Shown: positions 17,874-57,988, counted from the first letter of the stretch. The stretch is 61,072 nt of DNA from Candidatus Omnitrophota bacterium (GCA_043732705.1 JAYTHE010000034.1:1-61072); one strand, 5' to 3'. The notes: generated by a model not told the origin, from the letters alone. Made by a program: numbers and translations.

Positions 17874-17906
17874 AAACCTGTCCACTTCCGGGAGGTGGAC
17901 AGGTTT
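17874..17906 (+). terminator. Terminator-like hairpin after grx
   Basis: aaacctgtccac / gtggacaggttt 12-bp stem with a 9-nt loop. Confidence 0.45.
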
Positions 17907-18091: not shown

Positions 18092-18634
18092 ATGCGCAAA
18101 AAACAAGGTACCTACTCTCGAATTTTGGCGGGAATACTTGCCTTTGTTTTCACTTTAAATTCGATCTTGCCCAATGCTTCGGCGGGGCAAATTCTATTTG
18201 AAGCACGAAAGCAAAGCGAGCTTCCCGATATGGCAAATATCTGGCTTCCTCCGGAGCTGGGACACGTTACTTCTGCCTTCCGCGGCCAATCCGGCCGTAT
18301 GCTGTTTCATCTCGAAGACGCGCACGGCAATTACGAAGCTCAAATCCGCCTCGTCGAACTCATTGATTTTCTTAACAAACATTATGGCGTGAAGCAAGTT
18401 TATCTCGAAGGCGCGACACAGAAAATTAATCCTAACCTCTACCGTTTTTTCGAAGAGAAAAAGCCGGCGTTTCAGGCTGGGCGGAAATTGCTCGAAATGG
18501 GCGAATTAACCGGCGCTGAAATTTTTCTTTTAAAACAGGAATTACTGCAAAATTGCGGACGGCTTTGCGTTCAAGCGGAAGGGATTGAATCCGCGTCGCT
18601 TAGTGTTTTGCCGCAATACCGAGGTGCTTTTTAA
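18092..18634 (+). CDS. Secreted 180-aa protein paralogous to residues ~45-170 of the giant ORF. It may be a stand-alone N-domain or the remnant of a second giant gene.
   Basis: Signal peptide (ILAGILAFVFTLNSILPNASA). HLEDAHGNYEAQIRLVELIDFLNKHYGVKQVYLEGATQKINPNLYRFFEEKK...ELTGAEIFLL aligns with MLIEDAHTSMEAQIRIRDLVGFLNQKEKIKTILFEGAAHPLKPSLYHFYHDPKK...ELTGGELALF in the giant ORF. Confidence 0.6.
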   Translation: MRKKQGTYSRILAGILAFVFTLNSILPNASAGQILFEARKQSELPDMANIWLPPELGHVTSAFRGQSGRMLFHLEDAHGNYEAQIRLVELIDFLNKHYGVKQVYLEGATQKINPNLYRFFEEKKPAFQAGRKLLEMGELTGAEIFLLKQELLQNCGRLCVQAEGIESASLSVLPQYRGAF

Positions 18635-18819: not shown

Positions 18820-21800
18820 ATGCTATTTCAACATTGCGTCTTTAAAAAGTGGGTTTCGGCGTTTGTCGCGCTTGTGATGTTTTTTAATTTCCAGGTTCCG
18901 TCTGCCTGGAGCGGCCCTGCTTTGCCGGTTTTGAATTTGCCCGAACATTTGGGCATGCTTAAAAAAGTCTCGCGCGGTCTTTCTTCCGGAAGATCCTCAA
19001 AAACGGTGATGCTGATTGAAGACGCGCATACCAGTATGGAAGCGCAAATCCGTATCCGTGATTTGGTCGGATTCTTAAATCAAAAAGAAAAAATCAAAAC
19101 CATTTTATTTGAAGGCGCGGCGCATCCGCTCAAACCGTCGCTTTATCACTTCTACCATGATCCCAAAAAACAAAATACTTTTTTGCAGAATTTATTGCAG
19201 CAGAGTGAACTCACTGGCGGCGAGTTGGCGCTCTTTGATTCCATTACAGGCAAACCGAACGCGCTGCGTGGAATCGGCATGGAAAACGCGGATGATTTTA
19301 TCCGCAATTTGCAAGCCGCGAAAAAGCTGTTTCGCAATCAAGGCGCGGTTCAGGCCGCGTTGGAAAAATTAGAGCAGGTGCGTGATAGAAAATGGCGCGG
19401 GCATGTATCCAAAGAATTAGAGGATCTGATTCGTGGGCATGAGTCATTCCGTCGCGGACAAACGGATTGGTTTGCTTATCTGGATTTTTTAAATGCTGCT
19501 GCCAAATCGACGTTGCATCTTGACCTGTCCAATCCGCGCTATCAGTTTGAATATCCGATGCTTGTCCGCGCGGCGCTTCTGAAAAACTCCGAAAAAGAAA
19601 TGAAGCCGGAAATAATCGAGCAGGACCAGGCGCGGTTAGCGGCTTGGCTTCGATCCCACGGTTTTAAAGATTGGGCGGGTCAAATCGAAACCAGCAAAAT
19701 TGAAACGGGTGAAATTCGTTCCGAACTCGAACAGCTTTATTCCGATGCCGCAAAGAAGGGACTTAATTTTGAAAGCTATCCGGCTTGGTCGCGCTGGATG
19801 GGTTTGAAAGGATTGGAACAGGAGCTCGACGCAGCGCTTTTTGAGAAGGAAATGAAAAAGCTGTTTAAGCAGCTCGTGAACCAATCTCTTCAAAATTCGG
19901 ATGAGCGTGAATTTGTGAAAGCATCGCAGGACTTGTGGAAGACGCATGACTTGCTCGAATTAAAATTATCCCGTTCCGCATGGCAGAAATTAAAAACCTC
20001 CGGGGTTATCCTGAACCAGGGGACTGACCCCGGTGGGTCTGTCCCCAATGCTTCCTCTGCGTCATTGCAAGGAGCGCAGCGACGAAGCAATCTGACACGA
20101 AGTGTCATCCCCGACTCGATCGGGGATCCAGCTCTGGATTCCCGCCTGCGCGGGAATGACAAAAAGCATCAGATCGCCGCGCCTTCTTCGATGGTTCGCG
20201 ATGACGAGCGAGGTGGGTCTGGCCCCAATGCTTTCTCTCAAAAGCTGGTTACCGAGCTTGCCGGGAATGATGCGTCGCTTGCGGCGGCCATTCAAGCTGC
20301 TTGGGAGTTTTATGACGCGGCGGAAAAGCGTGAAGCCGGATTTATTGCCGCAGCATTAAAACAACTTCAAACCGAAAACAAAATGGCCGTGATTGTCGGT
20401 GGTTTTCACAGCGATGCTTTGCGGGATGCGCTTGCCAAAAATAACGTCACAGTATTTGAAATTACGCCTCGCATCACGCGGCTTGATTTTAAAGAAGGCG
20501 AGGCGAAGTATCAGCGCGCCTTGCTCGAAGATTCCGCCTTGCAGCATATATTGCGAACGGATCTGGATTTAATACCTGTCAATGCAGCTTTCCGTTTGAG
20601 TGCAATAAACAAAGCCATGCCTGGAACTCCCGACAACAACCAGCTTTTGACTCAACTTTCTGGTGTTAGGTTTGCGGAACTCAAGACTCAAGACGCACGA
20701 CTCGCGACCAGTAAGCGTTCCGAATCCCGCGTGTCGTATGCCAAGCCAAAAAATTTACAGGAAGGACTTGGGCGTTACTATGGCATGAAGCTCGAAATGT
20801 GGAATGCGTTAAATACCGATGATGCGGATTTATTCCGTGCAGTACTCGTTGACTTTCGTTTGCTTGTAAAAGACACGAATGACCTTGCCCGGAAATTAGC
20901 GGATGAGAAGGCCGCGCAAATGGCAAGACAGGTTTATGCGATGCTTCTGCAAGGGGAGAAACCCTACCCTCAATTTTTGATTGATTTTCAAGATCCGCGG
21001 CTCATGTTGGTTGAGATCAGAGTATTACAAGATGCGGGAGATAGGGATTTTTTTAAATTGCGATCGACAATTATTGAGGAGATGGCCGGTGAGTTTTTTC
21101 CGACGGATGATGAAAAACCGAAACGGGAAGAATTAATTGATTTGCTGAGTTCTAAAATCGGCACCAATCATATTGATGAACGTTTTCCCGAAAAAGCTTT
21201 TGAAGGGGATATGCACGAATGGAAAAAATTCGCACAATCGGCGGTTGTGAATTTAAGTTCGAGAGCGACGGCGCATGGCAGCTATTCACCTCGCACGAAA
21301 AAAATTTATGTCAATCCTCATCCTATTTCAATCAAAGATTTTAAGCCTGTTGCTGCGGAGGAACGTGAAATTGTTTTGCGTTCAACGATTAAGCATGAAG
21401 CGACTCACTTAATTTCGGATCGTGACTTGGGTGAGAAACGGGTGCTCAAGGTGCCGGAGCGCTGGGAAACTTTGACATGGGCGCTGGATGTGATTGAACG
21501 TGTGAATATTTTAACCGGCAAACGTGCGCTTGATGAAATGGGTGCGAAAGAGCGTGAGGCTGCTCTGGAAAAACTGCAAAGCTACAACGAAGAGTTTGGT
21601 GAGCCGGCATTACGTGCTCTTTTTGAAGTTGGCCGCGAAATGGGCAAAAACAAAGAATATGGATTTTTGATTCTTCCGCACATTGATTCCGAAGCCGGTT
21701 ATTTTTTTATTGAGCCGTTGATTGAAAAAGCAAAAACAGTTTACGGTAAGCTGGGATTTCCGCTGCTTAATTTGGATGATCAATACACGCGTGAGCGCGC

Positions 21801-51800: not shown

Positions 51801-52491
51801 CGGCCTTCGTGAAACTCAGTTAGCTGTAACATTCGGTGTGACATTCGGTGTTTTTGCTCCGGGCTTGCCACCTATGTTAATTCCGCAGGCAAGGCTTGAA
51901 TTAAGAGCGCGTCTGCCAAAACTTTTCGCGGATGAAAAAGCGATGCGGATTGATTCTCGCGCGTTGACCGGGAATGCTTCAGAAATGCCCGTTAAAGTAG
52001 GCCGTATATATAGTGTCCTGCCAAAGGTGCAAAGCCCCGAATTTGAATTTTTGGCGGATGATTTGGCGGTCAATGTCAGACATCAACTTTACTTCTCTTT
52101 CGCGGGACAAAAATCCGACGCGGATTCTTTCCGTAAAGCTTTGACCCAACGCGTAAGTGAAATTCGCAAAGATAAAAATATTGCCAGAAAGGGCATTGAT
52201 GTCGCATTTTTAGATTTCGCGTCGGCCGTTTTTGAAACGGTTAATCATACCGGTCTGAGTGGGCTTATTTTTAGCGATGACTTGAAGTTGGGCGGTACGG
52301 TTCTCAGCGGTATTGTTGCGATTCACAATACTTCGAATAAGCCGGAAGAAGTTGTGGCAGGGCTTGCGGCTGCTATCAAAGAACTTTCCAATTCTCATCG
52401 CAGAGAAGGTTGGCGCAGCCTCGCGGACCTACTTGCCGGGTACCTTGAATTGGCTCAGCAAGTTCAGGCGATTATTTCCGCCTCCGCCTAA
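18820..52491 (+). CDS. Giant multidomain protein, 11,223 aa. Predicted secreted or N-terminally anchored. Contains vWA plus 2 AAA+ (MoxR/AAA_5-like) domains, an HExxH motif, propeller-like repeats and many novel repeated modules.
   Basis: No stop codon for 33,672 nt in one frame while the other frames are riddled with stops. ATG start and an N-terminal hydrophobic segment (WVSAFVALVMFFNF...SAWS/GP). Recognisable catalytic motifs. Extensive internal paralogy with conservative substitutions. Stem-loop immediately after the stop. Caveat: 32981-33678 looks non-native (see findings). Confidence 0.75.
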   Translation: MLFQHCVFKKWVSAFVALVMFFNFQVPSAWSGPALPVLNLPEHLGMLKKVSRGLSSGRSSKTVMLIEDAHTSMEAQIRIRDLVGFLNQKEKIKTILFEGAAHPLKPSLYHFYHDPKKQNTFLQNLLQQSELTGGELALFDSITGKPNALRGIGMENADDFIRNLQAAKKLFRNQGAVQAALEKLEQVRDRKWRGHVSKELEDLIRGHESFRRGQTDWFAYLDFLNAAAKSTLHLDLSNPRYQFEYPMLVRAALLKNSEKEMKPEIIEQDQARLAAWLRSHGFKDWAGQIETSKIETGEIRSELEQLYSDAAKKGLNFESYPAWSRWMGLKGLEQELDAALFEKEMKKLFKQLVNQSLQNSDEREFVKASQDLWKTHDLLELKLSRSAWQKLKTSGVILNQGTDPGGSVPNASSASLQGAQRRSNLTRSVIPDSIGDPALDSRLRGNDKKHQIAAPSSMVRDDERGGSGPNAFSQKLVTELAGNDASLAAAIQAAWEFYDAAEKREAGFIAAALKQLQTENKMAVIVGGFHSDALRDALAKNNVTVFEITPRITRLDFKEGEAKYQRALLEDSALQHILRTDLDLIPVNAAFRLSAINKAMPGTPDNNQLLTQLSGVRFAELKTQDARLATSKRSESRVSYAKPKNLQEGLGRYYGMKLEMWNALNTDDADLFRAVLVDFRLLVKDTNDLARKLADEKAAQMARQVYAMLLQGEKPYPQFLIDFQDPRLMLVEIRVLQDAGDRDFFKLRSTIIEEMAGEFFPTDDEKPKREELIDLLSSKIGTNHIDERFPEKAFEGDMHEWKKFAQSAVVNLSSRATAHGSYSPRTKKIYVNPHPISIKDFKPVAAEEREIVLRSTIKHEATHLISDRDLGEKRVLKVPERWETLTWALDVIERVNILTGKRALDEMGAKEREAALEKLQSYNEEFGEPALRALFEVGREMGKNKEYGFLILPHIDSEAGYFFIEPLIEKAKTVYGKLGFPLLNLDDQYTRERAAAIILGGILTTHEDTKKNPAKALKDFFDSLYEMYGAHENPAVMARVAENIRYVMNALVEKLAVRGTDIVSAGFWKYDRGDRVAGRRPTFYYNESDFLPRAYDMPAELREKPVEAMEAALLAARERGLGNAHLAFAYENIVHGEFDEAARTLPEHRLLWQMLWTPQIYASELMETGHKSVLQVAQDRLINDLRGGARWLTRVFRERYNPSVNLMAARARLASLPLHLQYLDSMLYVFSNELPADSKQSADPRLTNSDVIAALKATHGDYAKNPGWLRAMIGWRPEDANTPAKSQAMLAEVAESIWPVYKKLYDKAVEQMRKEILERAANRELEDQEVLQMLGDMTPAEQQLLEQILQQMMQQSEQQFASGNQSQNQSSMQSPQQQSGQQSGSQQPGGQQSGESQAGGQPSSGQAGGGAQKSSQGNPGSGGQSAGASQGKQGASQPGSGSQTGGQPSNQGSPSGAKASGGNPGAMQSGNTPGSNAVSKLQAALQNLQNLMGTLGSQVQNLAAQAAQVKQQLPQVAGAAGQVGDASQQAKKAGAETAQSGQKTEPGSQASDSGTPNAQSAAEAAAEKLNQMAQSIQNEAASALNQAKDLENQSSAAQNAGNQIHNQMPWKNPQVEAGQIAAQAQAMKKSAEQLMKLANQMAEKAAQISNEAGAQNPEAAKLKTDAETMTQMAQQMKANADDIVHGTRQTEESIAEAEKSVADAANAIQKAQALIEKMDAAKQQAKTDSGNEVKQPKGSSQKTSESQGGKGTGKSEAGGSSSAGRGIEASGQLSDLPKPPTSFGMREMMKLGDNTNGNANTGKPIAGIDFQPDDYAGLAAALKKVKKLNAAEKKEYDSWFSDKVHDPDGEKVTVRDIIDEIVFFLNSTLKESRGIDKVDAPHGAVLANVVKAVNGAAGGWANVDFTKIPELYLALLVDASGSMGTEFYGKTKTQIAQMVAFILMEAIYEHNLERRKLALPVIKMEIGIFQSAVDLLVSHEQFENMDDREKEYFIYHSIKKFEEGGSTEYSYAVKRYFEHVASLGFERKVQNDVFVVTDEAVGETQKKEVQGAVTFAKDENVGFHIVPLGDDDEIEASKQLHGSELVIDPRTLEKRVELLPYVMIARMMGRLAKEYRIALPPRFARYVAETDAATRSEARVSVDLKKLRDIPGYQFFKDYTDADGREFLVWLRAGETMAWQKGVGGSEVPRNRPAMTPENEIILYGLLSKLYTPDVIYTSINADRRYFIREAQNGKTELFFREKEEDGWKSAAKWGIQNRPVVDGERFRGANGVTWKAANSGKVEVSLENGTSFKVDLPEGVAVDKVYFEQAGDEDTVYLFQSGRAARVQVFKKTGTVWKQAADMQMETWTKADEPLKKVLNATGLPGLGKGVLLREMARMMNLEYYKLAADEKVHPEELAANRALRDGVSADDPSSWTQARHLGALFVVDEAHKLSKETMNSMKSPIASGLHEWVYITQDGQYKKMTVPNSAMARIVFTSNTLVQGITGSALTDLDPAMRSRIILQQFNWQSPGAEKRRLMLHAEKFVRDNPGLQLPSDLNETVNRLMKAAAGLRIAYLGGDKDDIDAAMQTSDGINYPYWERKIEELSRKFKTPGILRAPSARVLQMMMEHFIRFPLDAKYRKWSVVHRIFNFRAEDDRKKSYETVEAAFQKFFENDPAAGARKPHFDLKHSFQVVRRGQDAESLPLYSLQVTATGPDGKPDPFFDTFEVPIHRDSEMVQQFEQGETPELPAAFQFLLRYPQNHELLYQMLQAYAKDRDVILVGPASTGKTVIGTTVQELVGGRGVTVEAMYEGVTPETLFYSPGIGLDGRRWESGFSAGSVIKAMLEGKPIGFDETTQAEAHVIGKLNEVTEQREYEHPGTHEKIHATRGFWSLHYINPPDGYDTGTASAEWYERHDILWVDALPIQESMELSASAGDLGDKQINPKLIGLAALQRGESKGLVALMEWSRQAARGTATGKAKDFTKKIKNEIEIRRMIEAIKAIAQRFETEFALQNRNWVLEAVKWGIFGKNRDPETVTATEIRLVMNAWMRDEHADWKNQKIGMGDKTRHDFTIEVLRKPQEVLLDLINQNYQFQFPEWHEVLVDGLKQAGLWKDEWNQDGITELLNGEDIVLELLPLLPNGKPKLDGTEFNEPVLQDVLEYIERNVDGAALQEKIKWLQTKISELYATHKDPAKAVNIWNKLDFETRLKRLAVLSEIYRILNLTVTLRGYGVKGRTHNEANTKVLRSYLDNIERAIEARDWPVAALKDAENPEFDAVKKLEGWLAEYKFRKYTILPTGKSAIDGFGSEEAQDLGARAFVLGSQYPDYTKIIVPKLQLARQQKPPQAKRSEVRRGLSQAVRGTDPNAPVTAVFGLSRNHKGQSPFEDRPSRRSEARFDDAILELATAQQGLSSARALQDSIGGSESIVAAAQRQVEALEVEVERLKPNGFDVAAALVVANQAASATQQVATPAPAPVAAPKTVVSNAILKHSNIIDYASSLGLGKGTEKYWDQLKYPGFFQKKWISFGYLLLCNLYIYLDYVLLFWNTFTGLLERGLLKDEQPPALYMAERHMRSLVLDVQIATKDVDAPESREAVRVELALEQKIKAFRDKWKFKNKFLNYFTTGILELYLPIWRNATAVACLSEVKEWLKYPQRKANQMSRDAFNKFMAAEIGKESVQGLFGRLVELTPDYYDTQTSSGWLAVLLWHRAYASKRDDPNTQTTPYIPKPEITLIDLMRENRRDTQKALSDEERRTLSVTAGILSQRFWLEMAYEFREVSRNGFYFAEHMLDAGSVTAQTIKKSQQDLALMKQGLDADVVTDEELAEISNKTRAILFDDFGQYPNFQYSHLIWNMIEPLLQKEVDADERRWGYADFVSVIQQALGHQLQSRWVAQPDDAAFLAVISNRYRHFFNIRMSLSKNQAHFDDEARKRLKEPEPIILRNRLATMNRWFVEEEPDNEEVEANSNDELADIVARSEVRGNHPHPRGAARVSTPGLWVGQDAALSSRSEMREQTTVEEALQKTREEHSKLVQQHSSMEALAESLGDAIDLTMTAGPVAVAAEVIQLLEKELREIIAAEEARKAALAAQGGKLDLAKLLADTEAELADLKGTGAGVPVPDADSETIPSVKPTQQKYKFVRREKKNIRAGIANKNFAGITVSASKDRLYVGHKNLPDYLVEFIARPDKAGLPNTVIFINGGAHRSDNHILDFAITGFQKKDKKYIYEITLIAENKNYTPEKPQIIRKGNALFVVKTFSQSEAEDRGDELQKYFKFEKVGDESVVSTIPKWNTNQDLMIASPNGKGVIRFEFQTEGRLGKHALGVKGKIFSDEKSKKEEHWNAENVGVTIAGFVTAIFDPADKTLWIVSDEWNDGSIKAVPAKAKSEQVTHLELHPKTGNPIIIPIRRIGTKEVLANWDKFKNLLPQDAEANSKSIVTAWVSELIDSLPKGKTVSMRPNVVSGFASDEQLTRLKQALGLQTAPHKDAVFGYGEEMRSDYLIFNVTVGSGGSAKEELVLWYQKDGKEYWLWLKGISKTKLITNLGVFALTGQFHPSILKQWLEKRNSKSLAMDILKNLPGNWTDSTWEGAPSTKHKTMWFGKEAKSTDVSFMAKEENDQDNGDWELTVNAGELRIYWHQDRNILEIGGEDVSLPNNPLVDVTYDKDQKTATLVLDEDAKVAIATTLDVKDSVRKTRVMASRGKLGFKLAFADSATYQSPNQSQKRSELRSRQSSVFSFQAALNFYPALVSSLLSRELMGGSATRTTSLRDSTLVSTRDKRSLTSRISSRSGTTTSVSNWILVSMFSSMAPTSVVVNVFFMIAYPTFVSSFVSRKLIAGMAELMEGMPTRTTSSNEPTRVSSRSSRFSTAESRSGSGATTSITTRKSARKLSMSVATSPDVNLSSDILFSSKWKVNMPQNSGLVNIYLSYNIIVLFAYLAFASLQRLASSVKHSSGLRSRLLADQAGGLGLFQRSEVRTAAEIETRIAELEERKAWILEAMALENTEYQVPSTAATGTGAGVPAPNRFSELDEFHLPQLTKMESASSILEYGKLPEKMNGGDGGVQVLVNLGNGLALAGTSEGSVALIRAKLKGVNENEPIVVIEELNLDTNDRVSSLTYLGDGLVLAGTNEVKIYLVKIDPQAKKRQRLKKIGDLSLSSGIVQSLIYLGNGFALAGTGSKELFLIKVHSSAEKKHQLEVIETLSEVANGWINALTYLGDGFVLGGSRKPDGQVFLVKINPEAEAGKRFQKIATLGRSSDESVTALTDLRNGFALMGLGKKISLIKVSPSAGEKQRLQVIESLPKNFYGSVRTLTHLGNGFVLAGMDDGKICLIGANPKARKGQRLKVIESLSGDIESDVRASAYLGDGFALMGTGRGRRGENQIFVIKIQGKVEASKVAGTHSASSGQTGAGVPVPSESTYKIIKPRGAKSIAMENGTLVFRPDMRPVHIQYYYTFQGDPSRQDTNFPGIEDFINAFKVGKKVYAIVKNGSQTKDEKKYPKKAGSARKGKDQISLVYWTESEALIPENVAKVKAAVSPEVFNEIYKPVETHSAGSGQAGAGVPVPVVVSDQKALKPIIEEKTAKLNAQVDIHAEYSVVLGDGRIKIWTQPRKSFVLNNKFKNVLGMEWIPTGKKDKPWMLVVIGRDDNWTILVDQRGQPQSTERPLFQNPAKNVKNYKIYKHATNKNHYGLALIQADGKVKIWNLVRGDVTSNELITTDLKDVPEYKNGLVSQMKVKKALAPSASGRGATPAPIVEPKEVKLLQGLLNARAEYDPATGDVNLAIVDMTAVPARVVGEGRVTRLESLLGLEWAPFQVTEPVGKEILLMIAEGNVATVMVNPDGNLGGLQTVPFLADKPIQNYKLYAYSDTEVAVQINFEDGSNHILIMKNNGFLYEPKTAINLTGKKPISHPMKVAPPPLPVSAPKAISKTTTFAGKRFTASVDQNNADTVHIQVGAREHFFGAGNVQAFEWIVSKIDKTPPVEQIGLLIVGKKEFDFIFFNTQTSLPFSPHHHEFDQAITGYEILKISAETHAVILKFQDGSRSAWKITTDAIVFEQEVTAMDLAQVPKGKPIYQGNFQPATSTAAVASTPGTDPVPKPALGSPVSGLRSNISDWQKEIYETLIDLIQTDIALDERQQPDGTKAHLPESGLISKSGAVPKYHVKEWNGESVYIDRPAPRYSHNSQYGLKQSDSGHIYIHPTWDMSDTYDFRKKIHRSDILQVINREEKGDEGKHELYVVIKDNVLIDGWPRKFGWLHTEWKVHYVTEAEAVKDYEKYKKLGIRFKEIPAQQTNDYRLPTTDTSTAGPPAQKSLVVSPQSVVLAKRKALLLEKLAIEKELATQVSDTTAVVPDTYAPIASTTLADLQARLDAVNKQIQKKHQFIEKTGSTGRRDEALVILHELEAEQKELLEKISAMSSATRPPPGGGQAFQFPPEFRVEPKQKLEFEIESNSKSWVLVKQAELDFFGDKSALPISNNEMDIEIPMEFRLKFIHIAFDGKNTVYVVVPDGSNLKGVGQYYKTEIEFKKPQKNLHLEYMTESQAIANKSKLEKWIEFKEASAALGRPWKQLQLQGLTPIVFMEGKDGDQMAVSVHFSNNLYLHLMKDGRTHSLRDTQILAKDVAQIFYDVKNNKTCVIVKDGVLKPASTNAITFLTEDEAVQMLAATAGDRALVAGSVPHGSKETSESPVSSLIQRREEIIAALARLDSSGVRALVGSSVPNASLGTKQHALNVLNSLSEAIWEKTDIEGAAAYGAQMREEVKRGLLGFVAEKESESNFGKWALQTAGGGPKISEMLNYYYVWHPTSSEFHILETEIKLSQDPLVDVVYDENTKTAKLILDQSAEAQIRKAMTGKEGLTLSPTDKNFGIELVFVSPATYVSPNNAKPSPIVVPFTFGAKEHAMNVFKSLPQVWEKSKDTEGYDQAREVEKGPWITKMFVMDSKQGALGNWRLKKGHVNRGYSVFKWDEALSELDLSFDGSEKVKLSQNPLIDVVTQDGTVKLVLDIASKLPIDKLRGKNNPIERVNTPKSADTNIGFEIVFADPATYVSPNAARSELRSRQSLVVSLQSARSEMREQTTVEEALQKARDEHSQLVQQHSSMQALAESLGDAIDLAVTAGPVAVAAEAIRLLEDKLREIIEAKNKVPGAERWITLLAAKEKELAELKALLGTDPNAGLGTGSVPNAQPKTVVAAEPQPIIEDKYAKLNGINNARASYSHDFSVISITVIDDIPTLISGSHTIPGKFENVLGMEWLPTGKTDRPWMLVVIGKEEFWTILVDGKGAPQSPVSHTPVQTGHVIKNWEIYKQNLEQGSPNKHSFLLVFDGNARKVLTYYSVVDGDVRFVNNGVVGPKHELFAKMKVAQEKLEPEPIIEIKMADLNATQQVRTDYWATKISLNVLNNGKRVARHEIPGAFENILGMEWLPTGKTDMPWMLVVIGKEEFWTILVDKAAVPQSPESHALTSEGVQYKNWEIRQWNHGPQNYFLMLKDSAGKNLPYAFIDGQVNPYNSEANLGPHHSLYTKMKVADVAASDAVLSAAPQKRLMPLGALPIYLRPKVTVGSGEELILSGSKDDDALLLVFKQVGAVPNSESIEALQDKRDLIQAGYDPAQNKVYIVVSNQPRVQNQSQVAAKSSTTTWGTTIEYLTQSEALKRHDEFKSKNILKYVEVPTEAMAASSLGSPASGLRSRIAALETEIARLKDLIATYEKRAKVINEMTALEARITGDRALVGSSVPNVPSAVAPQKQLKKWDGKDTGLVKKKGNTITIKSVVNVKIRPDQIAQLHDDKVGALTIVVADDVVTTDFPQGVDGYVIRWIKEEEVRNHPEQFSYLAFESGPIAGATQKQLIKWDGETLVKIATNWDLTYASPGVGEIVNSMGSRFELPVPLQSILQVKPDRSTNDFVVLVDEAVDIANLPASIHAKNNSTSITVRWIKPRQLETLEDGRLAAPSMATGPLAEYAERVVFDTEDVSVEPTGDRALVDSSVPDAVVATQKRLIPMPRDGKKQVLGSTKTGIELFFYMMASGDIIFYDSGNDNDIIYYKGTTQKQLNEKDVVQIKFDRSKTEIYIILKNDVVGRFGEMVNLAGQSIAVKYLYEKDWNRDTEQYPNIFEWEDVPVAVSALGTDPVPEIALGSVPKAKRLTHLKDVSSILDDKIRMLEALLGGTEDHGGQSLPTGQAGNIALSPTPSVIPAQAGIQSSVSGLLSPDSNKIELSDGIFVGFGKWKWGVGQIDQDGQFLTGTEWYGRFDNIQKIEVHGTGEKRILFITDETRIVAVELIQETDSAGESTFHFWHPGHVILDQEISAPIQNSRIHAFADCVLWTGWFQSPEGPRFFKYEINLVDGSVTGPPPSLLGPNFHGLNYYQIGSEEYIFQSFGNNSAFQLDKVLETEAGIVIDGVNHVRWADLGIKPALGDFKSGNPIQIGGEWYLQIESQIPGTSNGKYFSLKKLEHSFKEDRVAFVYQLDLTTTIQALTANFSSEVSVKSVKNKDDKTIVRLAGFPDGESERDYEWVKQGNEIKFVPVPGVAPNTPPPTIKSAVRLDEKYWVGLTDHGIQIAYNPKPGEVGIQNNKPLADILKFEYKIISGKPYLFITTKTRLLLVPFDSNLGFKAFGAPVWEKTFDPAQPIADSKVAVLDPIGENGNLAGRWIIYAAEAAGHKALTQNIDIYFEPTGAVDHVVPQDPVRFTHSDAQIGFYEIDGEFYKFMGNPYLFEIRQIVRSTTDGSIHEEQVGGRSWKDMGYGDSSGGIFVAANVIRIDSPLKTDDENWNTDLFLSVAYYYDGAGAAETKFALYPIKTEKRLKATGHGNTFIDRKTHKVLTAPSLVPINASPLPGYYKIGGSTGNKIQASIEISGVAENYILEWQLQADGKTFKLVQTPRVTQQFKLRRSKTNFVGRTLVWGDSDGTGIDLRVSGDAVSLEHHSLADNGDSSTDGVHEFTVDVHGLEASNLVSVKYDSATDKIYFVVNGLSQMSKKPTVEEPWKKVIWIDLDEAQSAEGYAKYKDILDYEPASLPSKVFPVSGLLSPVPASPAGRSSHENAPALLKRLSFLDRLLALLEQHWELSIAGSVGLGAEATETVSSGLGINELEKQLAEVQAELKANWEMKQGLSTAGNPRMTIRHIPSNQSVAWWFGTLGEVPESEDDEDTDLKVRDSTLLTQYQALKKKEAELTQAIAVAEKSAPSVLGPSASGLIGLVAKEIRLIKKWLRLDTLFETLKARLAAFMERVSSGLRPPATVPVSAQPPLWDAGEFYARLPWDIDSNSNGLVKNINFQDAGWSSMKYSPDYWTLRLKYKKASDDPSVVHEFTVQGIREGTKSRLMVWGKKISEDMSVLLDVSYDAIEQRLFLTFDSSVEQSVRDALKHADLENNELGIKFKIQFSTREKVIAAKAQKLERWAPLYGDINTDKGGRRLTAGPFQEKMSFKVGVQNWQTEIPSSPIVQIRGSIDLKKIVIVVEDGTITSDVATFIREIELDGEKYDIVYIQDKDVVRVEDQSIFKFEPAVLEKYTIVNIAKDTPTEYFLGGQESILFFPEGKKVVVAETKKGGIVEAFGWPGLHDNFINYFLDHDDLGRKKLVIIVKEKTDFSKYPIHMKLLNLDVEYWEGSVALKPENISKIKNALGNKANLVLQAMETVTAPATVVQKQKAIHPTSKAEVEMRLSSDHKVQIVGADWNMPHRADTYQLPDDVIHANIFYWLDQLYLLTFSKDRTGPGTAIRLYMPTQGQLGRTTDEPYRSPLPVKGYQLVQPTGALSDYYLNLEMESGAIATQSGPVSALQLNFPLATLDYYASIAQGGEKIIDVTALTDVFQPAAAPSLEHWDGNEMKLDGTNLLFKKENGLVLYKAEGKWWILQNNEPQRVPADAVIQITTRRAGDLREPPEPDEKTMVVFVLRDDYGHAINFNTLGGYQTTSYTETGAIKAIAAGVDFFKFASKKSATKTRIKPQTTGSYNLGKNHEGARVEFSRLDEISMAFFAHYPGGGAYQHNVYHKGGVDQLSPKDILQTKLVNEHGSLSVYMAVKNGADISNYPTSILLDKSDAGTKSGPGFARIYYVEESNYLKEPEKYPSGLFETETVQLKPMPAGDVEIGEMNDGSKVILAQVNGFYFTVESQPDVTGKFEFTRQDILQVKIHDNKFYIVAQAGIDFSGWSLEGESLPAGHTYHAVILTPEQAVSPRYAGIFEFEPVSNEAGGRSPEAQGEAIEHRAIAPSSAAVVIHAQMQQVGEQRAAVEAQIKALPPSGTDPHDGSGTGSVLDTAKWRVAPWVQSNEILAEHFIDAAQGIAIELDPGSMQSTGRIFIKTTAIQQDGTGKWRKTTLAEHIKKFDINLAEANFIAMGYDSKSRNLLVIVKAKPDNAQTSLLVYAPLTRLNIEYLTEAEALNPSRREELEKAGIVFESIAAVTQFKVVSDPRLKQGTVDIQHVGSIEHGGDTYNLMLESGAARPEGQTLLVKMQRNAETPTIELFLLKDELLAYGFDASQVPAKLVFVYKENTDLSGRGSKIEAVGSAKIADVKHLTESQALAPARRKELEKAGIKFKQVSTGFDAKELFNSLPWTSVPMQTGLSIKVFDESDTRKGRMVWHENGDFDLFAGKIRVRTKPGSSDRIELMNADNSIVTELPSKWLLKVRYDAAAKKFTFVFDKAAQDEVLAHMVKAGLAGIIPDTTLDSKIEFEESSPSNEPKLALWPTDDQTASVKIAGVNIVASVSGTGTIVLTERVPVGSARGGAPNLIPNTYIPLDDFVTLGVDPDGVSAMGGRVQTLVIVLKDNPSFQKPSDVEIQIGSEVVLIKYEQESDVLKHYSDYAHVLKSTGLAARAEFLAKWNAIHTTDPIKPEDIVLDKLSADGTIAIFASVRPVVGMPKEKQISFYRYNIQSGEIDYFHQQRPVYIPNDQVVVDIAISPNNKVYFLKMKERDGDIITFGSDRTKSSSAAFIDPKFDQTFENISYHIFLAGGSSHFQTVNLGGPVVLRSEIRVNHRSASSHREESLKDDVAISRRRSEIASPKARNDIKPLGPGAPASGLRETQLAVTFGVTFGVFAPGLPPMLIPQARLELRARLPKLFADEKAMRIDSRALTGNASEMPVKVGRIYSVLPKVQSPEFEFLADDLAVNVRHQLYFSFAGQKSDADSFRKALTQRVSEIRKDKNIARKGIDVAFLDFASAVFETVNHTGLSGLIFSDDLKLGGTVLSGIVAIHNTSNKPEEVVAGLAAAIKELSNSHRREGWRSLADLLAGYLELAQQVQAIISASA
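18950..20560 (+). other. N-terminal domain of the giant protein. Tentatively TraB/GumN/ChaN/Tiki-like (two GxxH-type motifs), interrupted by a repeat insertion.
   Basis: IEDAH (19018-19029) near the start of the domain, and VIVGGFHSDALRDAL (GGFH at 20398-20409) near its end. This is pattern-level resemblance only. Confidence 0.25.
20061..20205. repeat. Nested palindromic (MITE/REP-like) elements inserted in frame in the giant ORF
   Basis: Outer arms are gtcattgcaaggagcgcagcgacgaagcaatct ... agatcgccgcgccttcttcgatggttcgcgatgac. Inner pair is gtcatccccgactcgatcggggatccag / ctggattcccgcctgcgcgggaatgac (20104-20160). Flanked by 27-nt direct repeats at 20032-20058 and 20212-20238. Confidence 0.75.
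21394..21408 (+). other. HExxH (zincin-type) motif in the giant protein
   Basis: LRSTIKHEATHLISD. This is the motif only; the fold was not verified. Confidence 0.3.
22861..24130 (+). other. Q/G/S-rich low-complexity region followed by a long A/Q/K/E-rich predicted coiled coil
   Basis: SGNQSQNQSSMQSPQQQSGQQSGSQQPGGQQSGESQAGGQPSSGQAGGG..., then AQAAQVKQQLPQVAGAAGQ...AEKSVADAANAIQKAQALIEKMDAAKQQ. Confidence 0.7.
24541..25080 (+). other. von Willebrand factor A (vWA) domain with a MIDAS motif
   Basis: LLVDASGSMG (DxSxS, 24571-24585), downstream GGSTEY (Thr), and VFVVTDE (Asp). Confidence 0.7.
25880..26350 (+). other. AAA+ ATPase domain 1 (MoxR/AAA_5-like) with a degenerate Walker A
   Basis: GLPGLGKG (25909-25932; Gly in place of the Ser/Thr after the Lys). 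Walker B FVVDEAH (DE at 26107-26112). IVFTSN and LDPAMRSRI are sensor-like. Confidence 0.6.
27080..27560 (+). other. AAA+ ATPase domain 2 (MoxR/AAA_5-like) with canonical motifs
   Basis: Walker A VILVGPASTGKT (27112-27135). Walker B PIGFDETT (DE at 27325-27330). Spacing is typical of the CbbQ/NorQ/MoxR type. Confidence 0.7.
28829..28935. repeat. Two GGGGTC/GGGAC-type hairpin pairs between a pair of RSExR sites
   Basis: ggggtctgtccc...gggactgatccc and gggtcagtcccc...ggacagaccc. Confidence 0.6.
30717..30769. repeat. 53-nt imperfect palindrome between RSEVR (30697) and RSEMR (30793)
   Basis: ccacccgcaccccaggggtgc ... gcacccctgggttgtgggtgg. Confidence 0.6.
32994..33221 (-). CDS. Small coiled-coil-like protein (75 aa), antisense within the giant ORF; paralog of 33228..33479
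   Basis: ATG lies 6 nt after the stop of the upstream paralog. E/L/R/V heptad-like composition. Ends LETKAG like its neighbour (LETKVG). Confidence 0.45.
   Translation of the reverse strand: MKNTFTTTEVGAMLENIETKIQLLTEVVVPLREDMRDVKDRLSRVETSVESLKDVVRVALPPINSRLSRLETKAG
33228..33479 (-). CDS. Small coiled-coil-like protein (83 aa from MSEDKF), antisense within the giant ORF
   Basis: GGAGG lies 8 nt upstream of the ATG at 33479. An AT-rich spacer lies upstream at 33507-33600. Clear paralogy with 32994..33221. Confidence 0.5.
   Translation of the reverse strand: MSEDKFTSGEVATLIESLRADFRVVIEVVAPLPERLSAVENRLERLETRVGSFEDVVRVGIPSINSAIPAINLRLTKLETKVG
33940..34935 (+). repeat. Seven tandem ~47-aa repeats (propeller-blade-like) in the giant protein
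   Basis: L(T/I)YLG(D/N)GF(A/V)LAG...(I/V)(F/Y)L(I/V)K(I/V)...(K/R)(Q/H)(R/Q)L(K/Q/E)VIE(S/T)L is repeated 7 times. Confidence 0.7.
34963..35010 (+). repeat. 48-nt direct repeat, copy 1 (contains a GGGCAG..CTGTCCCC hairpin)
   Basis: acccattcggcaagctcagggcagactggcgccggtgtgcctgtcccc. Copy 2 at 35410-35457 differs at 2 positions. Confidence 0.85.
35410..35457 (+). repeat. 48-nt direct repeat, copy 2
   Basis: 46/48 identical to 34963-35010, exactly 447 nt (149 codons) downstream. Confidence 0.85.
38761..38793. repeat. In-frame hairpin element GGGGACAGAGCC-N9-GGCTCTGTCCCC
   Basis: Perfect 12-bp stem. Relatives at 38887-38919, 41929-41960 and 42682-42714. Confidence 0.85.
43262..43347. repeat. 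Composite of a nested hairpin (ggggacagagc[ctgcct..aggcag]..gctctgtcccc) and one GTCATTCCCGCG..GCGGGAATCCAG unit, in frame
   Basis: Read directly from the sequence. Translates as GGQSLPTGQAGNIALSPTPSVIPAQAGIQ. Confidence 0.75.
51686..51768. repeat. Palindromic element (GTCATCGCGAGG...GCGATCT / AGATTGCTTCG...CTCGCAATGAC) in frame near the C-terminus of the giant ORF
   Basis: Same family as 20061-20205 and 55454-55556. Confidence 0.7.
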
Positions 52492-52520
52492 CCGATCCCA
52501 ACCTCGTAGGTTGGGATCGG
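52492..52520 (+). terminator. Stem-loop immediately after the giant ORF stop
   Basis: ccgatcccaacc tcgt aggttgggatcgg. The following sequence is only moderately T-rich. Confidence 0.5.
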
Positions 52521-53906: not shown

Positions 53907-53938
53907 ACTGCTGAATCACAAAAGTAGAGCTCTTGTCG

Positions 53939-57944: not shown

Positions 57945-57988
57945 TCAAATAGATGAAAATATTTAAACAAATCTCTTCGGGAGGCAAT

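What the first reader, a model, noticed from the sequence alone, without database searches (positions are those of the whole stretch)
18820..52491. Single 33.7-kb ORF encoding an 11,223-aa modular protein of largely unknown function
One frame stays open for 33,672 nt while all others close frequently, and stops are read normally in all flanking genes. The product would be among the largest bacterial proteins.

Readable content:
- N-terminal signal/anchor;
- a domain shared with the upstream small ORF;
- an HExxH motif;
- a ~420-aa disordered/coiled-coil region;
- vWA-MIDAS plus two AAA_5/MoxR-like ATPase domains;
- a helical segment with one strongly hydrophobic stretch (29338-29430);
- a 7-blade-like repeat;
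- more than 25 copies of at least four novel module types;
- a unique ~200-aa C-terminal domain.

More than 80% of the protein has no motif I can name. An ATPase-plus-MIDAS engine attached to a very long modular fibre suggests a surface adhesion or contact machine of the kind proposed for giant proteins of predatory or epibiotic ultra-small bacteria.
Basis: partly seen in the sequence, partly recalled or inferred. Interest (0 to 1): 0.9.

Follow-up and report, generated by a model that had tools for sequence, protein, structure and literature searches.

The report
Giant Omnitrophota protein with midasin-like head
The 33.7-kb reading frame is a real single gene of an uncultured Omnitrophota bacterium, and it encodes a signal-peptide-bearing, almost cysteine-free giant protein that joins a conserved 3,300-residue head containing a midasin/MoxR-type ATPase and a metal-site adhesion domain to a 7,800-residue tail of modules seen nowhere else that was searched.

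Summary
The ORF (18820-52491, 11,223 aa) is confirmed. It has no in-frame stop, against 369-898 stops in the other five frames, and host-like codon usage in 220 of 223 windows. It holds no long near-identical DNA repeats.

The contig is from Candidatus Omnitrophota (Era 93% identical to an Omnitrophota MAG). Three related genomes have IspH-glutaredoxin-SDR adjacent, so the 180-aa ORF plus the giant gene is a 34.7-kb lineage-specific insertion.

An exhaustive search found about 45-60 relatives of 2-7.5 kaa, annotated only as "AAA family ATPase" in Omnitrophota and Elusimicrobiota. They share only the first ~3,300 residues:
- a signal peptide;
- a new N-domain;
- an invariant HExxH-x19-E domain;
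- a low-complexity spacer;
- a MIDAS vWA domain, a beta domain and two AAA_5 modules (midasin E=3e-50; Foldseek hits to dynein, Rea1 and NorQ-NorD).

The tail is not shared with any relative. It holds a 7-blade repeat, 16 copies of a new ~90-aa module and smaller module families.

The most likely function is an exported MIDAS-plus-AAA+ "grab and pull" head on a long variable fibre, possibly processed at recurrent RSE[VMLIA]R linkers. How it gets ATP is unresolved.

Extras are an antisense two-gene cassette inside the ORF and in-frame palindromic insertions. I rate it a new variant of the known Omnitrophota giant proteins.

The parts
18820..52491 (+). Giant ORF, 11,223 aa, ATG to TAA
   Evidence: 0 in-frame stops against 369-898 in the other frames; codon usage favours this frame in 220 of 223 windows
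18820..18915 (+). Sec-type signal peptide (aa 1-32; KK, hydrophobic core, SAWS|G)
   Evidence: read from the sequence; the same kind of N-terminus is in nearly all complete family members. No signal-peptide predictor was available.
18916..20679 (+). Conserved N-domain (aa 33-620) with IEDAH, EG and GGFH motifs; a mixed alpha/beta core with a large helical insert
   Evidence: homology to P0001, P0002, P0004 and P0005; AF2 pLDDT 80-93; only weak Foldseek hits to BcR135/erythromycin esterases (E 0.4-7); no Pfam or PDB sequence hit
20017..20298 (+). In-frame insertion (aa 400-493) built from palindromic DNA ('GTDPGGSVPNA', 'QRRSNL', 'DSRLRGND'), absent from all homologues
20680..22839 (+). Conserved HExxH region (aa 621-1340), mostly helical
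   Evidence: AF2; no PDB sequence hit; weak Foldseek hit to the minigluzincin selecase (E 4-8)
21394..21468 (+). H859-E860-x-x-H863 ... E883 (HExxH-x19-E), invariant in 7 family members
22840..24321 (+). Q/G/S/A-rich low-complexity and coiled-coil spacer (aa 1341-1834), not conserved in sequence
   Evidence: weak SMC-like coiled-coil hit
24532..25164 (+). vWA domain with a complete MIDAS motif (D1918-x-S-G-S ... T ... D invariant)
25285..25854 (+). All-beta domain (aa 2156-2345) between vWA and AAA1, preceded by a low-confidence linker that carries RSEAR (aa 2135)
   Evidence: AF2 model
25894..26715 (+). AAA_5 module 1 with helical lid (aa 2359-2632). Walker A reads GxxGxGK-G (no Ser/Thr), so it is possibly degenerate.
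27097..27624 (+). AAA_5 module 2 (aa 2760-2935). Canonical Walker A is GPASTGKT. The Walker B Glu, N976 and R993 are invariant in the family.
27625..28959 (+). Helical extension (aa 2936-3380), the last part conserved in the family
28960..52488 (+). Tail (aa 3381-11223): no similarity to any of the 61 related proteins collected
   Evidence: Pfam, NCBIfam and PDB searches negative
29338..29430 (+). Borderline hydrophobic stretch (aa 3507-3537)
   Evidence: Kyte-Doolittle 1.62
32994..33506 (-). Antisense cassette: two paralogous coiled-coil ORFs (32994-33221, 75 aa; 33228-33506, with ATG at 33479 after a GGAGG). Both end in LETK[AV]G followed by a stop. The giant frame stays open through them and reads as S/T/R-rich and 'TM-like' sequence (aa 4726-4924).
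33925..34953 (+). Seven 49-aa repeats (aa 5036-5378), propeller-like
   Evidence: (weak Beta-prop_RSE1 hit)
35131..51186 (+). Zone holding 16 copies of the new ~90-aa 'M' module (...D-x-x-Q-x-x-x-D...K-Y-V-V-K... Y-x-T-E-x-E-A...), interspersed with C modules (4 copies of 165 aa), A modules (2 of the 3 copies of 178 aa), E modules and H coiled coils
   Evidence: no Pfam or PDB hit
51847..52488 (+). C-terminal ~210 aa with no match and no recognised sorting signal
18092..18634 (+). 180-aa ORF: signal peptide plus the first ~140 aa of an N-domain. It is closer to P0005 (40.6% identity) than to the giant (30.6%), so it is probably a 5' remnant of another family member.
17874..17906 (.). Hairpin just inside the left edge of the 34.7-kb insertion (about 17840-52565) relative to related genomes
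52492..52520 (.). 13-bp-stem hairpin immediately after the giant's stop codon, near the right edge of the insertion

Best explanation
SHOWN. This is one intact gene, maintained by selection, in a Candidatus Omnitrophota genome. Close relatives lack it at this site. Its first ~3,300 residues are the conserved 'head' of a rare protein family found in Omnitrophota and Elusimicrobiota MAGs. The head consists of:
- a Sec-type signal peptide;
- a new alpha/beta N-domain;
- an invariant HExxH-x19-E (gluzincin-type motif) domain;
- a low-complexity spacer;
- a vWA domain with a complete MIDAS site;
- a beta domain;
- two midasin/MoxR-type AAA+ modules, the second with all catalytic residues conserved.

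The remaining ~7,800 residues are a tail shared with none of the relatives collected. It appears to have been built by amplification in place of new ~50-180-residue modules. The modules are joined by linkers, many of which are encoded by GC-rich palindromic DNA.

INFERRED MECHANISM. The head would work like midasin/Rea1 and the MoxR-vWA pairs NorQ-NorD and CbbQ-CbbO. The MIDAS metal site would grip an acidic residue of a partner protein. The AAA+ modules, probably assembled into a six-module ring from three copies, would use ATP to pull on or remodel that partner. The signal peptide and the near-absence of cysteine suggest the protein leaves the cytoplasm. The tail would then serve as a long, fast-evolving reach-and-bind fibre toward a host or prey cell. 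The zincin domain, together with the ten RSE[VMLIA]R motifs in exposed linkers, suggests proteolytic processing into pieces. Where the ATP comes from is unresolved.
For: Real gene:
- No in-frame stop, against 369-898 in the other frames.
- Host-like codon usage throughout.
- The longest internal DNA repeats are 202 nt at 86% and 140 nt at 88% identity, so repeat collapse is unlikely.
- An independent Logan assembly reproduces the upstream genes and the first 1.3 kb.

Taxon and insertion:
- Era is 93%, 90% and 87% identical to Omnitrophota MAGs.
- IspH-glutaredoxin-SDR-AddB are contiguous in all three relatives.

Family:
- 60 hits among 1.84 billion representatives, 35 of them at E<1e-30, with lengths of 2-7.5 kaa.
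- Similarity covers aa 8-3380 only.
- P0005 (3,312 aa, inside a 215-kb contig) is head-only.

Engine:
- Pfam AAA_5 at 69 bits.
- Family profile against PDB sequences: midasin E=3e-50; CbbQ, NorQ and CobS about 1e-7.
- AF2 pLDDT 71.6.
- Foldseek: dynein and Rea1 rings at 1e-11 to 1e-9; NorQ hexamer and the NorQ-NorD vWA complex at 1e-9, TM 0.55.
- MIDAS and AAA2 catalytic residues are invariant.

Zincin motif: H, E, H and E invariant.

Export:
- Signal-peptide-like N-termini occur across the family, with no TM segment before the engine.
- 6 Cys in 11,223 aa, and the mature head has none, against 0.88% in neighbours.

Processing motif:
- RSE[VMLIA]R occurs 10 times against 0.04 expected. It also occurs 5 times in P0004 and 4 times in P0005.
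- Two occurrences are at homologous domain boundaries.
- The Arg and Ser codons vary, which argues for selection at the protein level.
- One motif lies in a linker with pLDDT below 50.

Tail: 16 M, 4 C and 3 A modules plus 7 blades, none found in relatives.
Against: - An AAA+ ATPase outside the cytoplasm has no known ATP supply, so export of the head and ATPase function conflict.
- No signal-peptide or topology predictor could be run.
- AAA1 lacks the Walker A Ser/Thr, and only two AAA modules are present, so ring formation is an assumption.
- The vWA Pfam score is below its cut-off.
- The N-domain and the HExxH domain have no significant structural match.
- No tail module resembles a known adhesin.
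- No expression, proteomic or read-level data were available.
Its uniqueness is therefore shown only against 61 relatives, Pfam, NCBIfam and PDB.
Confidence: 0.5

Rival explanations
1. Intracellular or membrane-anchored conflict (immunity-type) system. The fused vWA-MoxR-peptidase head would be a regulated NTP-dependent switch. The hypervariable tail would be a sensor array that diversifies in an arms race with viruses or other invaders, rather than a surface fibre.
For: - The gene is accessory and sits in a variable spot: it is absent from three related genomes, and a remnant of a second family member lies beside it.
- Tails differ completely between relatives.
- From my own knowledge, vWA-MoxR modules joined to peptidases are a recurrent theme in predicted bacterial conflict systems (work of Kaur, Burroughs, Iyer and Aravind). 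PMC8195603 turned up, but I did not read it.
- This reading solves the ATP problem.
Against: - A Sec-type signal peptide is conserved in the family, with no following TM segment.
- Cysteine is almost absent.
- No effector, STAND or nuclease domain was detected.
- The PADLOC library was not searched.
Confidence: 0.2
2. A polyprotein. The ORF is translated once but acts only as many separate pieces, cut at the RSE[VMLIA]R linkers by its own zincin or N-domain, so the 'giant protein' never exists as a working unit.
For: - Ten RSE[VMLIA]R motifs against 0.04 expected. They sit at domain boundaries and are shared with P0004 and P0005.
- The HExxH-x19-E motif is invariant.
- One motif lies in a low-confidence linker.
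- Self-cleavage has been proposed for other Omnitrophota giants that carry C39 or S8 peptidases (10.1101/2023.11.21.568195).
Against: - No cleavage data exist.
- Most of the 16 M modules are not separated by the motif.
- The more distant family members lack the strict motif.
- This reading is compatible with the main explanation rather than exclusive of it.
Confidence: 0.2
3. The gene is interrupted. The antisense two-gene cassette at 32994-33506 is a recent insertion that has inactivated or split the giant gene, and the open frame across it is luck.
For: - These are the only three windows where the opposite strand has better codon usage.
- There are two paralogous minus-strand ORFs with conserved C-termini and stops, plus a GGAGG-ATG start.
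- The plus-strand translation there is S/T/R-rich and atypical.
Against: - The giant frame has no stop across the cassette or across the AT-rich stretch next to it. Only 1.3% of synonymous resamplings of the two minus ORFs, and 7% of shuffles of the AT-rich part, stay open.
- Codon usage downstream remains fully gene-like for another 19 kb, which argues for continued selection on read-through.
Confidence: 0.07
4. Assembly or gene-calling artefact: a chimeric contig or collapsed repeats that create a false long frame.
For: The contig is a metagenome-assembled sequence, and no reads were available to me.
Against: - A chimera would not keep 11,223 codons free of stops.
- Codon usage is uniform.
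- There are no long near-identical repeats.
- The head is collinear with independent relatives over 3,300 aa.
- The 5' end was reproduced in a separate assembly.
Confidence: 0.03

Closest known systems
Giant proteins of Omnitrophota (Archaeovorin and Dockerin types of West-Roberts et al. 2023, bioRxiv 10.1101/2023.11.21.568195; the catalogue of Nielsen & Lui 2026, bioRxiv 10.64898/2026.06.07.730766; Seymour et al. 2023, PMC10066038)
   Same: - Same phylum.
- Longer than 10 kaa, mostly unannotated and unique in sequence.
- Has a signal peptide or membrane signal.
- Lies in a variable genomic spot.
- Proposed role in contact with host or prey.
   Different: - It has no SecA_DEAD, dockerin/TSP3, C39 or S8 peptidase, CAZyme or metabolic-enzyme domains, and no series of TM helices.
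- Instead it has a conserved head with MIDAS-vWA and two AAA_5 modules.
- A text search of the Nielsen & Lui and Seymour papers for AAA, MoxR, vWA and (in the former) midasin found nothing. In West-Roberts, AAA_5 appears only in a supplementary figure legend.
- There are no type II/IV secretion or glycoside hydrolase neighbours within the window.
Midasin / Rea1 (Mdn1), the eukaryotic ribosome-assembly AAA+ protein
   Same: - A MIDAS domain and dynein-related AAA_5 modules sit in one very large polypeptide.
- It is the best sequence-profile match in the PDB (E=3e-50).
- Consecutive AAA modules superpose on its ring.
- A long low-complexity spacer is present.
   Different: - Two AAA modules, not six.
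- MIDAS lies before the AAA modules, not at the C-terminus.
- It has a signal peptide.
- It is bacterial.
- It has an added zincin-motif domain and a 7.8-kaa tail.
Bacterial MoxR-vWA chaperone pairs (NorQ-NorD, CbbQ-CbbO, CobS-CobT, RavA-ViaA)
   Same: - Same AAA_5 clade and the same ATPase-with-MIDAS-vWA partnership.
- From established knowledge of these systems, the likely common logic is that MIDAS holds the client while the ring remodels it.
   Different: Those are separate small cytoplasmic proteins that form homohexamers. Here both parts are fused in one exported-looking giant chain, with tandem non-identical AAA modules.
Giant repetitive surface adhesins of Gram-negative bacteria (LapA, SiiE, MpIBP; type I secreted)
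   Same: - A very long chain of small repeated modules.
- Almost no cysteine.
- An accessory gene.
   Different: - No BIg or cadherin repeats.
- No RTX repeats or C-terminal type I signal.
- No retention module.
- It has an N-terminal Sec signal and an ATPase head.
Rickettsia palindromic elements (selfish palindromic DNA inserted in frame into genes; from my own knowledge, Ogata et al. 2000)
   Same: Short palindromic DNA sits inside open reading frames without breaking them. This is shown here for AddB (a 47-aa insertion absent from orthologues) and for the giant's N-domain (aa 400-493).
   Different: The sequence families and the phylum are different. Mobility was not shown. The GGGGACWG...CWGTCCCC hairpins were seen only inside the giant gene.

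Membership tests
AAA+ ATPases, AAA_5 (MoxR/midasin/dynein-related) clade | Match to Pfam PF07728 above the gathering score | tested here: met
   69.4 bits against a cut-off of 22, two stretches; 52.6 bits for module 1 alone
AAA+ ATPases, AAA_5 (MoxR/midasin/dynein-related) clade | Walker A GxxxxGK[ST], Walker B acidic pair, sensor and arginine residues | tested here: met
   Met for module 2: GPASTGKT and FDET, with the family-invariant residues G861, G866, K867, E933, N976 and R993. Module 1 has GK-G without Ser/Thr, so it may be degenerate.
AAA+ ATPases, AAA_5 (MoxR/midasin/dynein-related) clade | AAA+ alpha/beta fold with lid, superposable on known rings | tested here: met
   AF2 pLDDT 71.6; Foldseek hits to dynein, Rea1 and NorQ at E 1e-11 to 1e-9
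AAA+ ATPases, AAA_5 (MoxR/midasin/dynein-related) clade | Assembly into a six-module ring and ATP hydrolysis | not testable with these tools
   Needs biochemistry or cryo-EM.
von Willebrand A domain with MIDAS | D-x-S-x-S ... T ... D metal-site motif | tested here: met
   D1918-A-S-G-S; positions D14, S16, G17, S18, T103 and D134 are invariant in 6 family sequences
von Willebrand A domain with MIDAS | Pfam VWA/VWA_2 above the gathering score | tested here: not met
   VWA_2 23.1 bits against 27; VWA 19.1 against 23.8. The profile against PDB gives vWF A domains at E=0.007. The AF2 model shows alternating beta/alpha. This is a divergent member, not a clean hit.
Midasin (Rea1/Mdn1) family | Six tandem AAA modules in one chain forming the ring | tested here: not met
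   Only two AAA_5 modules were found.
Midasin (Rea1/Mdn1) family | MIDAS domain at the C-terminus after the linker and an acidic region | tested here: not met
   MIDAS (aa 1905-2115) precedes the AAA modules (aa 2359-2935).
Archaeovorin-type Omnitrophota giant proteins | SecA DEAD-like domain and numerous transmembrane helices | tested here: not met
   No SecA_DEAD hit at E<=0.5. Only 3 borderline hydrophobic stretches, two of them inside the antisense cassette.
Dockerin-type Omnitrophota giant proteins | Dockerin, TSP3 or discoidin repeats | tested here: not met
   None found in Pfam scans of the whole protein.
Gluzincin metallopeptidases | HExxH plus a downstream Glu as third zinc ligand | tested here: met
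   H859, E860, H863 and E883 (HExxH-x19-E) are invariant in 7 sequences.
Gluzincin metallopeptidases | Zincin fold | tested here: inconclusive
   AF2 is confident locally, but the best zincin match is selecase 4qhi at E 4-8, TM 0.25. No Pfam or PDB sequence hit.
Erythromycin esterase / ChaN / TraB / Tiki superfamily (for the N-domain) | Shared fold with His-bearing motifs after the first strand and near the C-terminus | tested here: inconclusive
   The motifs IEDAH and GGFH are conserved. BcR135 (3b55, 2rad) and EreC appear five times among the top 50 Foldseek hits, but only at E 0.4-7.5. No sequence-level hit.
Type I secreted RTX giant adhesins | C-terminal RTX nonapeptide repeats and secretion signal; BIg-like repeats; N-terminal retention module | tested here: not met
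   No such Pfam or NCBIfam hits.

The most novel reading that the evidence does not exclude
The family is an exported midasin-like mechano-enzyme. In this reading a MIDAS-plus-AAA+ motor leaves the producer cell on a hypervariable fibre and works at, or inside, a host or prey cell, drawing on the victim's ATP. It is cut into working pieces at RSE[VMLIA]R sites by its own metallopeptidase. The gene additionally hosts an independently expressed antisense two-gene cassette that is kept compatible with read-through.
Probability: 0.1. Interest if true: 0.9.

Novelty: new variant of a known kind. Interest (0 to 1): 0.6.

Why it matters
Giant genes are a hallmark of Omnitrophota, but they are almost entirely unexplained, and most are singletons with nothing to compare them to. 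This one belongs to a family with a conserved 3,300-residue head whose parts can be named: a MIDAS site, a competent AAA+ module and a zincin motif. Its catalytic residues are known, which gives concrete mutations and assays.

The head-plus-variable-tail layout, the presence or absence of the gene among close relatives, and a head-only relative (P0005) together offer a natural experiment on how such genes grow.

The conflict between export signals and an ATPase raises a sharp question about where these proteins act.

The in-frame palindromic insertions and the antisense cassette bear on how a 33-kb frame is kept open while being invaded.

Tried and rejected
- Whole-protein and 5,000-aa database searches failed on length limits or a time-out.
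- Word-indexed searches with the engine region returned nothing, and with a family profile returned only P0003. The prefilter was swamped, and only the exhaustive search worked.
- The engine segment found no locus in the GTDB species genomes, so placement came from Era.

Searches that returned nothing:
- PDB sequence searches with single 5,000-aa pieces.
- NCBIfam: one weak, sub-threshold coiled-coil (SMC) hit for the giant, and no hit for its C-terminal 1,223 aa.
- Rfam found no RNA family, including introns, in the window.

Alignment and modelling problems:
- A three-block chimera for structure prediction that included an M module was abandoned because MAFFT scattered the M rows.
- A natural aa 33-1232 alignment misplaced the N-domain rows.
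- The M module was therefore never modelled.

The antisense cassette:
- It has no relative in phage or plasmid records.
- The single metagenome hit was a spurious match to a pseudouridine synthase tail.
- Promoter-like sites next to it are not above chance.

Ideas rejected:
- That the RSE[VMLIA]R motifs are just translated DNA repeats. The codons differ (including AGT against TCN for Ser), and the motif recurs at homologous sites in proteins only ~30% identical.
- That the hydrophobic stretches at aa 4781-4924 are membrane helices. They lie in the antisense cassette and its AT-rich flank.


Full report

The frame from ATG 18820 to TAA 52491 is open for 11,223 codons. The same stretch has 530 and 898 stops in the other two forward frames and 369-489 in the reverse frames. 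The preceding in-frame stop ends at 18807. All three stop codons terminate neighbouring genes, so no altered genetic code is needed.

A codon-usage model built from the flanking genes scores the ORF frame best in 220 of 223 sliding windows. At the DNA level the gene holds only three short internal repeats: 202 nt at 86%, 140 nt at 88% and 49 nt at 96% identity. Collapsed-repeat misassembly is therefore unlikely.

A separate Logan assembly (SRR23617244) reproduces the upstream genes and the first 1.3 kb of the ORF. The window is an entire 61,072-bp NCBI contig. I could not map reads.

2. ORGANISM AND LOCUS

The Era GTPase of the window is 93% identical to that of 'MAG: Candidatus Omnitrophota bacterium GFS_12873', 90% to 'Candidatus Omnitrophica bacterium UBA2337' and 87% to a third MAG. 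In all three genomes the genes Era-HAD-M48-IspH-glutaredoxin-SDR-AddB are contiguous. The glutaredoxin stop lies next to the SDR start.

In the window, about 34.7 kb lies between glutaredoxin and SDR (about 17840-52565). It holds a hairpin just inside its left edge (17874-17906), a 180-aa ORF, the giant gene, and a hairpin immediately after the giant's stop codon (52492-52520). The giant is thus an accessory, lineage-specific gene.

In the third relative, a family member (P0005, 3,312 aa) begins just after AddB. The 180-aa ORF is a signal peptide plus the first ~140 residues of an N-domain. It is closer to P0005 (40.6% identity) than to the giant's own N-terminus (30.6%). It therefore looks like the 5' remnant of another family member, and it suggests gene turnover at this spot.

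The neighbours are housekeeping genes, plus a two-partner-secretion pair that two of the relatives also lack.

3. A FAMILY DEFINED BY THE HEAD

Pfam names only a weak vWA domain (aa ~1914-2075) and two AAA_5 domains (aa 2364-2502 and 2760-2871). Everything else is blank in Pfam, NCBIfam and PDB sequence searches.

Word-indexed searches failed. An exhaustive HMMER search of 1.84 billion representatives with aa 1700-2899 found 60 proteins, 35 of them at E<1e-30. Most are 2,000-7,500 aa long. The few with names are called 'AAA family ATPase' (Omnitrophica, Elusimicrobiota) or 'MoxR-like ATPase'.

BLAST of the giant against them shows collinear similarity over aa 8-390, 470-615, 620-1340, 1835-2950 and 3060-3380, and nothing beyond aa ~3380. 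P0005, complete inside a 215-kb contig, ends about there. So the family is a ~3,300-residue head with a free-varying C-terminal extension.

4. ANATOMY OF THE HEAD

(a) Signal peptide. aa 1-32 form a Sec-type signal peptide: two Lys, a hydrophobic core and SAWS|G. Nearly all complete relatives have the same kind of N-terminus and no hydrophobic segment before the ATPase.

(b) N-domain. aa 33-620 is a new domain with conserved IEDAH, EG and GGFH motifs. AlphaFold2 on a 12-row alignment gives pLDDT 80-93 for it. The first row of that alignment was an artificial joining of aa 33-399, 494-620 and 700-1200. Foldseek finds no significant match. Erythromycin-esterase-like proteins (3b55, 2rad, EreC) recur among the top 50 at E 0.4-7.5, which fits my motif-based guess of an EreA/ChaN/TraB/Tiki-like fold but does not prove it.

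(c) HExxH region. aa 621-1340 is mostly helical. H859, E860, H863 and E883 are invariant (HExxH-x19-E, the gluzincin spacing). The structural support is weak (selecase, E 4-8).

(d) Spacer. aa 1341-1834 is Q/G/S/A-rich low-complexity and coiled-coil sequence.

(e) Engine. aa 1905-2935 was modelled with six sequences at pLDDT 71.6. It contains:
- a vWA domain;
- a low-confidence linker;
- an all-beta domain;
- AAA1 with a lid;
- a small beta unit;
- AAA2.

The MIDAS residues D-x-S-G-S, T and D are invariant. AAA2 has canonical Walker A and B, plus conserved Asn and Arg. AAA1 has GK-G instead of GK[ST]. The family profile hits midasin at E=3e-50 in five stretches, and CbbQ, NorQ and CobS at about 1e-7. 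Foldseek places the model on dynein and Rea1 rings (1e-11 to 1e-9) and on the NorQ hexamer and the NorQ-NorD vWA complex (1e-9, TM 0.55).

(f) Helical extension. aa 2936-3380 is the last part conserved in the family.

5. THE TAIL

The tail holds:
- seven 49-aa repeats at aa 5036-5378 that look like a seven-bladed propeller (weak RSE1-propeller hit);
- a new ~90-aa 'M' module found 16 times between aa 5438 and 10789 by iterated HMM search (alignment);
- a 165-aa 'C' module (4 copies);
- a 178-aa 'A' module (3 copies);
- three 2-copy families (E, G and H), including a coiled coil that is 85% identical over 61 aa between aa 3990 and 7048. Two further 2-copy hits are not counted as separate families: D overlaps two M copies, and F lies inside the antisense cassette.

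The profile of the M module hits nothing in PDB or Pfam. None of the module HMMs hits any of the 61 relatives.

The modules were evidently amplified within this gene. I did not get to search the tail against the large protein libraries, and I could not model a tail module because the structure jobs were capped at two.

6. LINKERS

RSE[VMLIA]R motifs. The motif occurs ten times, against 0.04 expected. It also occurs five times in P0004 and four times in P0005. Two occurrences sit at homologous domain boundaries across proteins only ~30% identical (consensus lines). The codons for Arg and Ser differ between copies. One copy (aa 2135) lies in the model's least confident linker. I read this as a protein-level signal, most simply a processing site. 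This is inference.

Palindromic DNA. Many linkers ('GDRALVGSSVPNA', 'GTGAGVPVP', 'GTDPVP...GTGSVP') are translations of GC-rich palindromic DNA of the form GGGGACWG...CWGTCCCC. Perfect hairpins with stems of 9 bp or more number 12 in the gene, against 1-4 in codon-shuffled controls. The pattern occurs nowhere else in the window or in ~70 kb of related genomes.

In-frame insertions. A different palindromic sequence forms a 94-aa in-frame insertion in the N-domain (aa 400-493) that all homologues lack. A similar one forms a 47-aa in-frame insertion in AddB that the orthologues lack. This genome therefore tolerates, or suffers, palindromic elements inside genes, as Rickettsia does (my own knowledge).

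7. THE ANTISENSE CASSETTE

The only three windows where another frame beats the ORF frame are 32920-33520, and there the minus strand wins. Two minus-strand ORFs lie there (32994-33221 and 33228-33506). They are 48% identical to each other, both end in LETK[AV]G followed by a stop, and the upstream one has GGAGG eight bases before an ATG at 33479. They encode coiled-coil-like peptides with no relatives that I could find.

The giant frame runs through them, and through the AT-rich stretch beside them, without a stop. It reads as S/T/R-rich sequence, and as the two 'membrane-like' hydrophobic stretches at aa 4781-4924.

The third codon positions of the two strands coincide here, so stops can be removed from one strand without changing the other protein. 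Only 1.3% of synonymous resamplings of the minus ORFs leave the giant frame open, and 7% of shuffles do so for the AT-rich part. Read-through therefore appears to be maintained by selection. Whether the small genes are expressed is unknown. Promoter-like matches are at chance level.

8. WHERE DOES IT ACT?

The protein has 6 cysteines in 11,223 residues (0.05%). One is in the signal peptide and none is in the mature head. Cytoplasmic-type neighbours have 0.88%, and other predicted surface proteins of the window have 0-0.36%. With the conserved signal peptide, this points to life outside the cytoplasm for the whole chain, ATPase included.

That conflicts with the conserved catalytic residues of AAA2, because ATP is not available there. 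The possible resolutions are:
- action inside or against a host or prey cell;
- an unrecognised topology that keeps the head inside;
- ATP-independent use of the fold.

West-Roberts et al. noted similar implausible 'extracellular' placements for other giants. I leave this unresolved.

9. MOST LIKELY MECHANISM AND ITS RIVALS

Best reading (confidence about 0.5): a MIDAS-plus-AAA+ 'grab and pull' head of the midasin/MoxR kind, carried with a zincin-motif domain, is exported on a long, quickly evolving modular fibre and is possibly cut at RSE[VMLIA]R linkers.

Rivals:
- an intracellular conflict system whose tail is a sensor array (0.2);
- a polyprotein that works only as pieces (0.2, compatible with the main reading);
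- a gene split by the cassette (0.07);
- an assembly artefact (0.03).

10. COMPARISON WITH WHAT IS KNOWN

Giant ORFs are well documented in Omnitrophota (PMC10066038; 10.1101/2023.11.21.568195). A 2026 preprint counts 5,761 proteins of 10 kaa or more, 80% of them singletons at 30% identity (10.64898/2026.06.07.730766). The size is therefore ordinary for the phylum.

This protein fits neither described type. It has no SecA_DEAD domain, no many-TM layout, no dockerin or TSP3 repeats and no enzyme clusters. The Nielsen & Lui and Seymour papers do not mention AAA, MoxR or vWA at all, and West-Roberts mentions AAA_5 only in a supplementary figure legend. A further text search found no paper on such a family.

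It works like midasin and the MoxR-vWA pairs, but it fails midasin's defining layout: two AAA modules rather than six, and MIDAS placed first. It is not an RTX adhesin.

Verdict: a real feature, and a new variant of a known kind. Interest 0.6.

Noticed in passing
window 32994-33506 (minus strand), with the AT-rich flank 33507-33620: Two paralogous small coiled-coil ORFs with their own Shine-Dalgarno sequence and start lie antisense inside the giant ORF. Their codon usage is better than that of the giant frame, yet the giant frame stays open through them. Only 1.3% of synonymous resamplings keep it open.
   Followed up: partly
window ~55445-55590, inside AddB (53933-57202): AddB carries a ~47-aa in-frame insertion made of palindromic DNA (CTCGCAATGAC...GTCATTGCGAG; 'EIASLPAVARND...ARNDGSLRGGKADEAI'). 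The AddB orthologues of two related Omnitrophota genomes lack it.
   Followed up: yes
window 20017-20298 (giant aa 400-493): A 94-aa in-frame insertion in the conserved N-domain is built from similar palindromic sequences ('QRRSNL', 'DSRLRGND') and a GGGACTGACCCC...GGGTCTGTCCC hairpin. It is absent from all four homologous N-domains.
   Followed up: partly
window 31102, 33808, 34990, 35437, 38761, 38890, 40260-40308, 41930, 42682, 43116-43170, 49468 (approximate starts): GC-rich hairpins of the form GGGGACWG...CWGTCCCC encode inter-module linkers. They are about five times enriched over codon-shuffled controls and were seen only inside the giant gene. They may mark recombination or insertion sites used in module shuffling.
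   Followed up: partly
window 32935-32990 and 39916-39965: After two RSELR motifs there is a run with 7-nt periodicity (…GTCGTCAGTCCTCAGTATTCAGTTTTCAG…). It reads as 'SRQSSVFSFQ' in one copy and 'SRQSLVVSLQS' in the other. Its origin is unknown.
   Followed up: no
window 18092-18634: The 180-aa ORF is more similar to the N-terminus of family member P0005, from a related genome, than to the adjacent giant. It looks like a truncated remnant of a second family gene.
   Followed up: yes
L005 19741-20388 (contig CAZLTL010000001.1): In a related Omnitrophota genome the head-only family member P0005 (3,312 aa) starts just downstream of AddB. That is the same neighbourhood as in the window but a different insertion point.
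   Followed up: partly
window 5113-10329: There is a two-partner-secretion-like pair: a ShlB/FhaC-type transporter and a 1,117-aa beta-helix-like protein. The C-terminus of the latter weakly matches the LapA retention module (34 bits, below its cut-off). The pair is absent from two of the three related genomes.
   Followed up: partly
window 57953-60964: A 1,003-aa protein with a signal peptide and no cysteine. It has an internal ~230-aa duplication and C-terminal 'YxYVNGV'-type repeats. It has no family match.
   Followed up: no
giant aa 2135, 3332, 3375, 3960, 3992, 4706, 4954, 7033, 7050, 10944: RSE[VMLIA]R pentapeptides occur ten times against 0.04 expected. They sit at domain boundaries and are shared with relatives P0004 and P0005. 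They may be a processing or recognition motif.
   Followed up: partly
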